In this document: piece by piece, positions 784 to 5,735 of the stretch
How the letters are laid out: each line of letters starts with the position of its first letter
Numbering within the stretch: position 1 is the first letter of the stretch
NCBI RefSeq assembly: GCF_006345805.1
Contig: NW_021829956.1
Location: forward strand, 1-5,735
Source of the DNA: Octopus sinensis
Taxonomy: Eukaryota
Length of the DNA stretch: 5,735 bases
Direction of reading: 5' to 3'
Position numbers and translations under genes: made by a program
The notes under the pieces: generated by a model
What the model was told of the DNA's origin: nothing
Databases searched by the model: none
The model's input: only the letters and a program-made list of their open reading frames with translations

Positions 784-894
784 GTGTGTATGTGTCCGTG
801 TGCGCGCGAATATGTGTGTATTCATATGCATGTTTATGTGTGAATGCATGTATGCATGTATGTACTCATGTGATATATATATATTATATATTAT
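784..894. repeat. Degenerate TG/TATG/TA microsatellite
   Basis: gtgtgtatgtg...gcatgtatgcatgtatg...atatatatatattatatattat. Confidence 0.85.
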
Positions 895-1062
895 CAACAT
901 CACAATCAAGGAACGGCCATAATAGGCCATTCACCCACTAGAAATAACAGCCAAAAGCTTCAACCGCAAAATAACATCAATTCCGTAAACCAGGAGAAAA
1001 TTAAAAAACATTTTCTAGTGGGTGAATGGCCTATTATGGCCGTTCCTTGATTGTGATGTTGA
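894..1062. repeat. Perfect 51-bp inverted repeat with 67-bp spacer
   Basis: 894-944 (tcaacatcacaatcaaggaacggccataataggccattcacccactagaaa) is the exact reverse complement of 1012-1062, checked base by base. Confidence 0.97.
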
Positions 1063-3313: not shown

Positions 3314-3356
<43 letters not shown>

Positions 3357-3378
3357 ATATATATATATGTATGTATAT
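3229..3378. repeat. (TA)n microsatellite with a 66-70 bp higher-order tandem duplication
   Basis: The same interruptions recur in the same order: TT (3254-55, 3320-21), GTAC (3283-86, 3353-56), then GTATGTATAT. Confidence 0.9.
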
Positions 3379-3585
3379 TATTTTATTCTTTTATTTGATT
3401 GTCATTTTGACTGGGTGGCCATGGTGGAGCACCGCCAGCAAATCGACCCCAGGACTCATTCTTTGTAAACTTACTACTTATTCTATCGTTCTCTTTTGCC
3501 GAAGCGCTAAATTACGGGGACGTAAAAACACCAGCGTCGGTTGTCAAGCGAAGGTGGGGAGACAAAAACAAACACACACACACAC

Positions 3586-3586
<1 letters not shown>
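3378..3586 (-). mobile_element. 3' half of an octopus-type SINE, truncated at its internal CA/TA microsatellite
   Basis: The T-rich plus-strand start is an A-rich tail on the minus strand. The body ggccatggtggagcaccgcc...aaatcgaccccagg...cttttgccgaa...ggggacgtaaa...cggttgtcaagcg matches my recollection of a very abundant octopus SINE. It shares a cgata.aataagta...ctggggtcgat module with the SINEs at 4401-4956. No tRNA-like head is visible beyond the microsatellite. Confidence 0.75.

Positions 3587-3628
<42 letters not shown>

Positions 3629-3741: not shown

Positions 3742-3785
<44 letters not shown>
3571..3785. repeat. (CA)n/(TA)n/(TG)n microsatellites with a short spacer
   Basis: CA run 3572-3586, TA run 3593-3623, TA/TG runs 3688-3783. 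Confidence 0.93.
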
Positions 3786-3786
<1 letters not shown>

Positions 3787-4092
3787 GAGCGCAATGGCCC
3801 AGTGGTTAGGGCAGCGGACACGCGCTCGGAGGATCGCGGTTTCGTTTCCCAGACCGGGCGTTGTGTGTGTTTATTGAGCGAAAACACCTAAAGCTCCTCG
3901 AGGCTCCGGCAGGGGATGATAGCGACCCCTGTTTTACTCTTTCGCCCCAACTTTCTCTCACTCTTTCTTCTTGTTTCCTGAGTAACGCTACGTTGGACTT
4001 GCGTCCCGCCCAGCTGGCGGGGAACGCATACGCCATAGAAACCGAGAAACCGGACCCATGAGCCTGGCTAGGCTTGAAATGTGCAGAAAAAA
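3786..4092 (+). mobile_element. Apparently full-length tRNA-derived SINE (about 300 bp)
   Basis: GC/CpG-rich island. Pol III A-box TGGCCCAGTGG (3795-3805), B-box-like GGTTTCGTTTCCC (3838-3850), 3' stem-loop AGCCT-GGCT-AGGCT (4061-4074) and a short A tail (4087-4092). The segment gtaacgctacgttggacttgcgtcccgcccag recalls V-SINE-type 3' regions (from memory). Confidence 0.85.
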
Positions 4093-4400
4093 TATATATG
4101 AGTGCATTTATGATCGCATCACATGCTTGCTTGAGGTAGATACATATTAAAACTATAATACTTCCATTGCTATATAGGGTACTAAAATATCGAAGGCAGA
4201 CATCGTATGAAGCAAAATGGCTGAGGAAAAATGATTGAGTAACAATGCAAGCCCCATTTTACCAACTTATGCTAGGCAACCTCATAGTCCCATTACCCAT
4301 AAAACACCTGGGGTTGGTCCTGAAACTTTCGTTCATGACCAGGACAATTCTCCTCTAGGATTGCGTTCTGAGGAATTAGCTACTGAGGAATTAGTTTGTC

Positions 4401-4723
4401 AGGCAAAATGCTTAGCGGTATTTCGTCTGTCGTTATGTTCTGAGTTCAAATTCTGCCAAGGTCGATTAAATAAGTACCAGTTACGCACTGGGATTGATAT
4501 AATCGACTTAATCCACTTGTCTGTCCTTGTTTGTCCTCTCTGTGTTTAGCCCCTTGTGGGTAGTAAAGAAATAGGTATTTCATCTGCCGCTACGTTCTGA
4601 GTTCAAATTCCACCAAGGTCGACTTTGCTTTTCATCCTTTCGGGGTCGATAAATTAAGTACCAGTTGCGTACTAGGGTCGATCTAATCGACTGCCCCCCC
4701 CCCCAAAAAAAAATTTCGGGTCC
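4401..4723 (+). mobile_element. Dimeric tRNA-derived SINE, 5'-truncated (monomers about 4401-4510 and 4574-4723 joined by a linker)
   Basis: Two copies of ggtatttc.tctg.cg.ta.gttctgagttcaaattc..ccaaggtcga...aagtaccagtt.cg.act.gg...gat.taatcgact, each with a B-box-like GAGTTCAAATTC. Homologous to 4743-4956. Confidence 0.85.
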
Positions 4724-4742
4724 TGAATATTTAACTTCACTA

Positions 4743-4956
4743 AGTCGGCGAGCTGGCAGAATCGTTAGCACGTAGGGCGGAATGCTTAGCGGTATTTCGT
4801 CTGCCGTTATGTTCTGAGTTCAAATTCTGCCGAGGTCGACTTTGATCTTCAGTTTTTCGAGGTCGATAAAATAAGTACCAGTTGCGTACTGGTGTCGATG
4901 TAATTGATTTATCCCCATCCCGGGATTGCTGGCTTTGTGCCTAAATATGAAACTCG
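4743..4956 (+). mobile_element. Monomeric full-length tRNA-derived SINE of the same family, with a degenerate TSD
   Basis: Head ggcgagctggcagaatcgttagc with A-box-like TGGCAGAATCG (4754-4764) and B-box-like GAGTTCAAATTC (4816-4827). Flanked by tatttaacttcacta (4728-4742) and tattttacttcatta (4957-4971), 13/15 identical. Confidence 0.88.
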
Positions 4957-5234: not shown

Positions 5235-5275
5235 AATTCTATTTTTAATATAAACATGGAACAAAACCTTTTTTT

Positions 5276-5490
5276 ACGGAGATGTACTTGCATAGCAAGT
5301 GACCTGATCTGAGATCGTGTGCTGGAACGAAAATAATTGCAGCGCGGAAGGTGTTTAAAAGCCGTTTCAGAAACACACAAAAACTGTTAGATTCACTTCA
5401 ACATTTAAATTTAATTTGCGAAAATATTTTCTTCGCTTTGAGACCGCGACCTGTTCACTGACAAAATTCCGTGCAGCACCTTCCACGCTG
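5276..5490 (-). mobile_element. Putative non-autonomous Penelope-like element fragment (pseudo-LTR type) with TSD and terminal inverted segment
   Basis: Flanked by identical 14-mers caaaaccttttttt (5262-5275, 5491-5504). 5477-5493 is the reverse complement of 5337-5353 (16/17). Carries a hammerhead-like motif on the minus strand. Confidence 0.65.
5415..5465 (-). ncRNA. Minimal type I hammerhead ribozyme-like motif, G3:C8 core variant (this copy partly decayed)
   Basis: The minus strand reads UUUGUCA-GUGAACA-G-GUCGC-ggucucaaa-GCGAA-GAAA-AUAU-UU-UCGCAAA. This gives stem I (6/7 pairs including one G.U), core GUGAACA, stem II (4 bp plus a G.A mismatch), GAAA, a palindromic minimal stem III and a UUU triplet. 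Confidence 0.6.
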
Positions 5491-5735
5491 CAAAACCTTT
5501 TTTTTTTTTTGCTTTTTCTTTTAAATGCTTCGAAACACATTTCGGAAAACATGGTATACATTTCGCTGCTCCGGTTTTTCCCCAGGATTCAAGTTCTCTG
5601 CTAGACTGTTTCCCCAGCTTAATTCTGATTGGCTCTAAACAAGTGCATTGGCAAACAATCAAACAATGCAATTCTGTCGTGCAGTGGAATCGGAGAACGA
5701 TAAATCTGAGAAAGAAAAAGATTTTTTTTTTTATA

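What the first reader, a model, noticed from the sequence alone, without database searches (positions are those of the whole stretch)
5415..5465. Minimal hammerhead ribozyme-like motif with a compensatory G3:C8 catalytic core
Seen: on the minus strand the elements occur in type I hammerhead order: stem I arm UUUGUCA, GUGAACA, one extra G, stem II (G)UCGC/GCGA(A), GAAA, AUAU, UU, then stem I arm UCGCAAA. Established: the canonical core is C3-U-G-A-N-G8-A, C3 and G8 form a Watson-Crick pair, and minimal type I hammerheads with a palindromic rudimentary stem III occur in Penelope-like retroelements and are proposed to act as dimers. Here both C3 and G8 are swapped (G3:C8), which preserves the pair, and stem III lies within the palindrome AAAAUAUUUU. 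A CUGANGA pattern search would miss it. Inference: this is a variant ribozyme of a cephalopod repeat family. This copy has two mismatches (stem II base, stem I position 2) and may be inactive. Predicted cleavage is between 5422 and 5421.
Basis: partly seen in the sequence, partly recalled or inferred. Interest (0 to 1): 0.8.

Follow-up and report, generated by a model that had tools for sequence, protein, structure and literature searches.

The report
Octopus retrotransposon hammerhead, swapped core pair
This stretch is a worn copy of a small hammerhead RNA motif carried by an octopus jumping gene present in thousands of copies, in which two paired core letters are exchanged while sister families keep the usual order; intact copies likely cut themselves slowly, but cutting is untested and this copy is predicted to be dead.

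Summary
The motif sits in a 206-nt solo terminal repeat (pLTR, window 5274-5479, minus strand, 14-bp target duplication) of an octopus Penelope-like retrotransposon; a 1,042-aa RT + GIY-YIG frame was found in another copy. A 17-nt pattern of the motif matches 6,908 places (control 3); 91 of the first 100 are G3:C8. Family copies restore stems I and II and fold as a minimal type I hammerhead; the window copy has both breaks and misfolds. Two sister families (B, C) carry the homologous motif with canonical C3:G8 and compensatory stem changes; an older relative (D) groups with this family and has G3:C8. G3 goes with U17, C3 mostly with C17. Against activity: C8 to G recurs in 15 of 150 copies, family B mostly lost A9, and copy ends show no pile-up at the cut site. 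Cleavage is untested. I found no published natural G3:C8 hammerhead in eight searches, but three key papers were not held, and this scan noted G3:C8 candidates before on other DNA (protist elements, phages). New variant of a known kind; interest 0.5.

The parts
5274..5479 (-). Solo pLTR with long tail of a Penelope-like element (family A): 5' UTR with the hammerhead motif, then the first 92 nt of the ORF
   Evidence: Family copies end at 5274 or at 5330-5335 and start mostly at 5479-5481; the same unit lies 3' of the GIY-YIG stop and 5' of the ORF in long copies
5415..5465 (-). Minimal type I hammerhead motif, decayed in this copy
5452..5458 (-). Core strand positions 3-9, with G3 (5458) and C8 (5453) in place of C3 and G8
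5432..5450 (-). Stem II (5 bp in the family) and loop II; A at 5432 breaks G10.1-C11.1 in this copy; loop II is the part that differs between subfamilies
5422..5431 (-). G12-A13-A14, palindromic helix III (15.1-16.1, six letters) and U17
5421..5422 (-). Predicted cleavage site, after U17 (inferred from hammerhead numbering; not observed)
   Evidence: inference; no pile-up of copy or read ends here
5274..5365 (-). Start of the element's ORF (31 codons); the ATG of the family reads ACG in this copy (5365-5363)
5477..5493 (+). 17-nt inverted, 5'-truncated second copy ending at the short-tail position (matches 5337-5353 on the minus strand)
   Evidence: sequence; same junction in L002, L003, L004, L007
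5262..5275 (+). Left copy of a 14-bp target-site duplication
5491..5504 (+). Right copy of the 14-bp target-site duplication

Best explanation
The motif is the minimal type I hammerhead of a Penelope-like retrotransposon's terminal repeat, with the C3:G8 core pair exchanged to G3:C8 throughout the family; intact copies likely self-cleave slowly after U17, likely as a double hammerhead or with help from the element's protein, and the window's copy is predicted to be inactive. Shown: family, position in the pLTR, link to an RT + GIY-YIG ORF, homology with canonical sister motifs, compensatory changes. Inferred: transcription starts at about 5481, so the motif lies in the first 66 nt of the RNA and a cut would remove the capped 60 nt, about 57 nt before the start codon; the palindrome AAUAUU would pair between two molecules or two pLTRs of one tandem transcript to build helix III; G12 and the 2'-OH of C8 would act as base and acid as in the canonical core; U17 rather than C17 would avoid a G3-C17 pair that covers the cut site. 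The short genomic copies are inferred to be cDNAs of uncut RNA running from the start site to two internal priming sites at about +33 and +92 of the ORF.
For: Family size and core state (6,908 matches, control 3; 91 of the first 100 G3:C8). Stems restored, variation concentrated in loop II (mean non-majority share 0.272 in loop II, 0.022 core, 0.041 stem II, 0.048 stem I, 0.049-0.064 downstream); the one common stem I variant (A or G at 1.3, 132 and 20 of 158) pairs with U either way. Intact copies fold stems I and II with probability 0.89-1.0 at the inner pairs in 77-nt pieces and in the two L212 copies and L176 at 207 nt; the double-hammerhead form is within about 2 kcal/mol of two monomers. 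16 of 18 scored pLTRs beside long ORFs are intact. Sister families B (3,558 matches) and C (77 of the first 100 of 583 matches) have C3:G8, A-U at stem II pair 4 and, in B, G-C at 15.2:16.2; on alignment A2 the 3:8 pair is G-C in 9 and C-G in 6 of 15 rows, with five pairs changed on both sides. A tree of the sequence downstream of the motif splits A + D from B + C (support 0.996). Metagenomic relatives carry C3:G8 (L281, L285) or U3:A8 (L282, L283) at the same place. C3G/G8C partly restores cleavage in a Penelope-like hammerhead (PMC11167929); a G3-C8 variant works less well with C17 (PMC3884650); U17 is common in published minimal hammerheads (PMC4209133 supplement).
Against: No cleavage was measured. 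C8 is G in 15 of 150 independently picked copies (about 10 events after merging local duplicates), against 0-3 at 30 other non-CpG C columns, and this occurs in several subfamilies. Family B has C at position 9 in 82 of the first 100 matches, so a sister lineage spread with a core change expected to hurt catalysis. Only 1 of 41 tail-picked copies starts at the cut site, and 1,804 RNA reads show no pile-up of ends. The predicted monomer fold closes stem I with G3-U17 over the cut site, and other dimers are 4-5 kcal/mol more stable than the double hammerhead; in one 207-nt context (L009) stem I was lost. In the Anolis element hammerhead mutants do not affect insertion in vitro. The covariation rests on about four lineages, not on independent rows, and family D was found with a pattern that demands G3 and C8 (one D-like copy, L368, has G8).
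Confidence: 0.62

Rival explanations
1. The motif descends from a hammerhead but no longer cuts to any useful degree. Its letters are kept by another constraint, such as the internal promoter that overlaps it (start site about 22 nt upstream of position 3) or a protein-binding fold, and G3:C8 was fixed by drift in the source elements.
For: 13 of 19 copies whose 5' end is at the AGATG boundary carry an extra G in front, as a copied cap would give, which puts the start site there (P 6.5e-6 against an assumed G share of 0.2); Penelope has an internal promoter with Inr and DPE (PMC2377424). Excess C8G, C9 in family B, irregular stem I in family C, no ends at the cut site, and dispensability in vitro in Anolis.
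Against: A two-step change that restores a long-range pair, held from old family D to young family A while N7, loop II, stem II pair 4 and helix III length changed, is hard to explain by a DNA promoter. Stems stay paired across families. In 3 inverted pairs (L415, L416, L419) one copy has G8 and its partner C8, so at least part of the G8 excess arose in single copies.
Confidence: 0.33
2. The resemblance to a hammerhead is chance in an AT-rich repeat.
For: No Rfam hammerhead match; the window copy does not fold as a hammerhead.
Against: About 0.001 expected per window; the family restores both stems; the motif sits where Penelope-like elements carry their hammerhead, and sister families have the canonical core there.
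Confidence: 0.02

Closest known systems
Minimal type I hammerheads (min-HHR) of metazoan Penelope-like elements (Cervera and De la Pena 2014, PMC4209133)
   Same: Type I order, extra nucleotide between 9 and 10.1, G10.1-C11.1, palindromic rudimentary helix III, NUH with U17, place in the pLTR, thousands of solo and inverted copies.
   Different: G3:C8 core. None of the Figure S3 rows that I read begins its core with G; the paper's named core variant is U3-A8. The extra nucleotide is G, outside the paper's >80% consensus (H), though one listed row has G.
Hammerhead of the Anolis Poseidon element PAc (Frangieh et al. 2024, PMC11167929)
   Same: pLTR hammerhead near the ORF start, two internal priming sites that define a tail, AT-rich targets, uncut RNA as the main template.
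   Different: PAc has C3:G8 and G3:C8 was only a laboratory double mutant; the PAc ORF starts inside stem II, whereas here the start codon is about 57 nt behind the cut site; PAc belongs to the Penelope/Poseidon clade, while this ORF has the CX2-5CxxC linker of Neptune and Nematis.
Natural core variants of Perreault et al. 2011 (PMC3088659)
   Same: Natural covariation of the 3:8 pair.
   Different: Section 8 names U3-A8 as the natural covariation, not G3-C8.
Non-LTR retrozymes (bioRxiv 10.64898/2026.07.22.740005, part 1 read)
   Same: Short animal repeats with type I hammerheads, derived from pLTRs.
   Different: Retrozymes are tandem arrays of the hammerhead unit; these copies are mostly single or inverted pairs that end inside the ORF start and have a coding parent.

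Membership tests
Minimal type I hammerhead of PLE pLTRs | Stems I and II around the core in type I order | tested here: met
   Family copies: 7-bp stem I, 5-bp stem II; 76 of 143 independently picked copies fully intact. The window copy has one break in each stem.
Minimal type I hammerhead of PLE pLTRs | Literal core CUGANGA | tested here: not met
   Core reads GUGANCA: G3 in 146 of 147, C8 in 128 of 150. This is the variant.
Minimal type I hammerhead of PLE pLTRs | Watson-Crick pair between positions 3 and 8 | tested here: met
   G-C in 9 and C-G in 6 of 15 rows across families A-D; 124 of 147 independently picked family A copies covering both positions are G:C.
Minimal type I hammerhead of PLE pLTRs | U4, G5, A6, A9, G12, A13, A14, A15.1-U16.1 conserved | tested here: met
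   Non-majority share 0-0.02 at each, 0.065 at G12 (a CpG site).
Minimal type I hammerhead of PLE pLTRs | G10.1-C11.1 pair, preceded by one extra nucleotide | tested here: met
   G 144 of 152, C 134 of 154, extra G 140 of 151; broken in the window copy.
Minimal type I hammerhead of PLE pLTRs | Palindromic rudimentary helix III and NUH triplet | tested here: met
   AAUAUU, then U17 in 153 of 158.
Minimal type I hammerhead of PLE pLTRs | Location in the pLTR of a Penelope-like element | tested here: met
   About 0.9-1.1 kb behind the GIY-YIG stop and directly before the ORF start in long copies.
Minimal type I hammerhead of PLE pLTRs | Site-specific self-cleavage (as dimer or protein-assisted) | not testable with these tools
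   No assay possible; fragmented Illumina reads show no end pile-up but are poorly suited.
Rfam hammerhead families | Match to a curated covariance model | tested here: not met
   No hammerhead family up to E 10 for the window copy; intact copies were not scanned.
EN+ Penelope-like element (Neptune/Nematis type) | Single ORF with RT and C-terminal GIY-YIG endonuclease | tested here: met
   1,042-aa open frame in L209 with RT motifs at 486, 618, 657 and GIY-YIG motifs at 934, 951; homologues carry PF00078 or PF01541. Pfam and PDB scans of the ORF itself were blank.
EN+ Penelope-like element (Neptune/Nematis type) | CX2-5CxxC linker before the endonuclease | tested here: met
   CxxxCxxC at 913-920; feature from PMC8557442.
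EN+ Penelope-like element (Neptune/Nematis type) | 5'-truncated, tandem and inverted copies, tail at one end, (TA)n targets | tested here: met
EN+ Penelope-like element (Neptune/Nematis type) | Clade placement by RT phylogeny with reference elements | not tested
   No reference PLE proteins were held.
Non-LTR retrozyme | Tandem arrays of non-coding hammerhead units | tested here: not met
   Mostly solo or inverted copies with an ORF start and a coding parent; a few local tandems (L015) are the exception.

The most novel reading that the evidence does not exclude
An octopus retrotransposon lineage fixed a working G3:C8 hammerhead long ago and kept it through two waves of amplification, together with a C17-to-U17 change that avoids a G3-C17 trap. 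It would be the first high-copy natural animal hammerhead with the inverted core pair, with canonical sister ribozymes in the same genome as controls, and a sign that CUGANGA-based surveys miss whole families.
Probability: 0.4. Interest if true: 0.65.

Novelty: new variant of a known kind. Interest (0 to 1): 0.5.

Why it matters
Searches for hammerheads start from CUGANGA; published surveys that report Penelope-like clades without hammerheads used that string (PMC8557442). About 7,000 matching copies of a G3:C8 family in one genome show what such searches miss. The four related families (C3:G8 with A9 or C9, G3:C8 old and young) are a ready-made series for asking how a catalytic base pair inverts in nature, whether position 17 must change with it, and whether Penelope-like elements need their hammerhead at all, which is still open. 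The window copy itself is an ordinary dead insertion.

Tried and rejected
Rfam scans found only microsatellite-driven miRNA matches and no hammerhead. The GIY-YIG fragment beside L009 looked like the parent but belongs to another Penelope-like family: only 2 of 30 of its loci held our repeat, and its own pLTR has a canonical core. A DNA-transposon reading (short inverted ends) was dropped once the fixed 3' end, variable 5' ends and the coding parent appeared. Junctions near 5416 in L020, L028 and L030 are microhomology jumps, not cut-site ends. The idea that G3-G8 is a surviving ancestral intermediate was not supported: G8 copies are scattered over subfamilies, and paired inverted copies differ; they are slightly more diverged (17 against 121 copies, P 0.026), which does not decide it. 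A 3' splice site at the AGATG boundary was considered (branch- and acceptor-like letters, 494 matches); no spliced copy or read was seen, but neither lay covered a donor. The look-up of sequencing runs listed no holder on record as RNA. Lunse et al. 2017 (RNA Biol), Hammann et al. 2012 and Przybilski and Hammann 2007 were not held. No covariance model was built; R-scape was not available.

Full report
Observation. A relaxed descriptor finds this motif once in the window and once in 6 Mb of matched random sequence, about 0.001 per window. The window copy does not fold as a hammerhead and Rfam does not list one.

The repeat. A search of the own genome gave 55 matches among 40 scored of 378 candidates, many in inverted pairs. 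The unit spans window 5274 to about 5481, with a fixed 3' end at 5274, a second end at 5330-5335, variable 5' ends, inverted partner copies and (TA)n flanks. The window insertion has a 17-nt inverted piece at its 5' end and a 14-bp target duplication. A 17-nt pattern with positions 3, 7 and 8 left free matches 6,908 places against 3 for the control; 91 of the first 100 listed are G3:C8, 3 are G3-G8, 2 G3-U8, 2 C3-C8, 1 U3-C8 and 1 C3:G8. Runs of four species labels hold the unit, and G3:C8 is read in all four. The genome is an octopus: a stretch of an Octopus vulgaris protein matches it at 99%.

The parent element. A loose read end led upstream: 494 copies continue into a (CATA)n-rich region, and several of 30 such loci carry the end of a GIY-YIG frame on the same strand. 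L209 holds a 1,042-aa open frame with RT motifs, a CxxxCxxC linker and GIY-YIG motifs, 0.9 kb before the pLTR. In L225, L226, L231, L238-L240, L242, L243, L245 and L248 the pLTR runs on past 5274 into the ORF, whose start codon corresponds to window 5365. These are the marks of an EN+ Penelope-like element of Neptune/Nematis type (PMC8557442, passages); clade placement by tree was not done, and Pfam and PDB scans of the ORF were blank. The two 3' ends fit the two internal priming sites described for the Anolis element (PMC11167929, parts 1-2 of 4). Of 19 copies whose 5' end is at AGATG, 13 have an extra G in front, which I read as a copied cap and so as the transcription start (inference).

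Does the family restore the fold? Of 350 distinct copies held, 183 were picked by the tail, the ORF or the upstream region, not by the motif; 141-160 of them cover each motif column. G3 146 of 147, C8 128 of 150, C11.1 134 of 154, G1.2 150 of 158, U17 153 of 158. Mean non-majority share at non-CpG columns: core 0.022, helix III and 17 0.020, stem II 0.041, stem I 0.048, loop II 0.272, downstream UTR 0.064, ORF 0.049. The copies are related and include local duplicates, so these are descriptions, not independent tests. 76 of 143 complete copies are intact, and 16 of 18 scored pLTRs beside long ORFs. Intact copies fold stems I and II as their minimum-energy structure, with G3-U17 added; in 207-nt context this held for both L212 copies and L176, not for L009. 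The double hammerhead scores -27.2 against -29.4 kcal/mol for two monomers and -31.3 for the best dimer (L209); for the window copy -6.2 against -26.1.

Sister families. Family B (ORF 54% identical) has the homologous pLTR with C3 in 95 and G8 in 100 of the first 100 of 3,558 matches, A-U at stem II pair 4, G-C at 15.2:16.2, C-G at stem I pair 3 and C17 in 21 of 27. Family C has the same stem I 5' arm as family A but C3:G8 (77 of the first 100 of 583 matches), with an irregular stem I. An old, heavily decayed family D (15 of 23 matches) has G3:C8, C or U at 7, the B/C form of stem II and, read by eye in four copies, a four-letter helix III with U17; the pattern demanded G3 and C8, and one D-like copy found otherwise has G8. 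A tree of about 100 nt downstream of the motif (24 copies) separates A + D from B + C with support 0.996, so the swap maps to one branch. On 15 aligned rows the structure pairs 85.6% of cells against 26-55% when slid, with five pairs changed on both sides; this reflects about four lineages. Among 70 metagenomic loci, close relatives with 3' sequence show C3:G8 (L281, L285) or U3:A8 (L282, L283), none G3:C8; L284 and L289 showed no clear motif.

Against activity. C8 is G in 15 of 150 copies, far above other C columns; genome-wide the share is lower, 3 of 100. It is spread over subfamilies, and three inverted pairs differ at this letter. I cannot explain the excess. Family B has C9 in 82 of 100. 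One of 41 tail-picked copies starts at the cut site, 17 within the first six letters. RNA run X24 gave 1,804 reads in both directions with no pile-up of ends and almost none in the ORF, so these reads come from passive transcription of solo copies.

Literature. PMC4209133 (parts 1-2 of 4; supplement 2, parts 1-2 of 3; supplement 1 not searchable) defines the minimal hammerheads, names U3-A8 as a variant and reports low dimer activity. PMC3088659 (section 8) names U3-A8 as the natural covariation. PMC11167929 shows partial rescue by C3G/G8C, protein-assisted cleavage and no need of cleavage for insertion. PMC3884650 (passages) gives the 3-17 trap and says G3-C8 works less well with C17. PMC8495972, PMC6765202, PMC6155905, PMC2377424, PMC10085705 and PMC13282606 were read as passages; the last, on octopus repeats, does not mention ribozymes. 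bioRxiv 10.64898/2026.07.22.740005 was read in part 1 of 5. Eight searches showed no natural G3:C8 hammerhead and no octopus hammerhead, but Lunse et al. 2017, Hammann et al. 2012 and Przybilski and Hammann 2007 were not held and could contain one. This scan's notes list G3:C8 candidates in three protist Penelope-like elements and in phages (unchecked); none on this DNA or genome. Hammerhead numbering and the roles of G12 and position 8 are established knowledge.

Verdict. A real hammerhead homologue with a natural, family-wide inverted core pair; probably a slow ribozyme in intact copies (0.62), possibly a relic (0.33); dead in the window. New variant of a known kind, interest 0.5.

Noticed in passing
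L381-L410, L262-L270 (family B pLTR): Sister Penelope-like family with C at core position 9 in 82 of the first 100 of 3,558 matches and A9 in 16; the younger copies also have U17. L282 from a metagenome has C9 too. Either an unreported tolerated variant or loss of function.
   Followed up: partly
L281:4965-5024, L282:2489-2548, L283:3424-3483: Hammerheads behind related RT genes with U15.1-A16.1 (L281) or U3:A8 (L282, L283): this clade seems rich in core variants.
   Followed up: partly
L231, L233-L236, L242 (pLTRs that run on into the ORF): C8G appears in about 3 of 7 independent read-through copies, more than in solo copies; could mean that cut-defective RNAs survive as long templates, but the numbers are small and clustered.
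   Followed up: partly
L209:1554-2220 (-): The 3' UTR before the pLTR is (CATA)n-rich, has a donor-like site near 2217 and ends in branch- and acceptor-like letters at the AGATG boundary; a retained intron is possible but no spliced form was seen.
   Followed up: partly
L032-L060: Another abundant octopus Penelope-like family (GIY-YIG end, 7,127 first-look candidates) with a canonical minimal hammerhead in its pLTR.
   Followed up: partly
window 894-944 and 1012-1062: Perfect 51-nt inverted repeat around a 67-nt spacer, with a few matches in other loci; MITE-like or a fold-back insertion.
   Followed up: no
window 3350-3620, 3750-4050, 4400-4950: Three other high-copy interspersed repeats (40-147 hits per 50-nt bin among the loci held); the last has three partial copies. 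Probably SINEs; no tRNA gene was called.
   Followed up: no
L270:754 (-), L266:6896 (-): Canonical-core hammerhead candidates of other repeat families, L270 with an eight-letter palindromic helix III and a long loop II.
   Followed up: no
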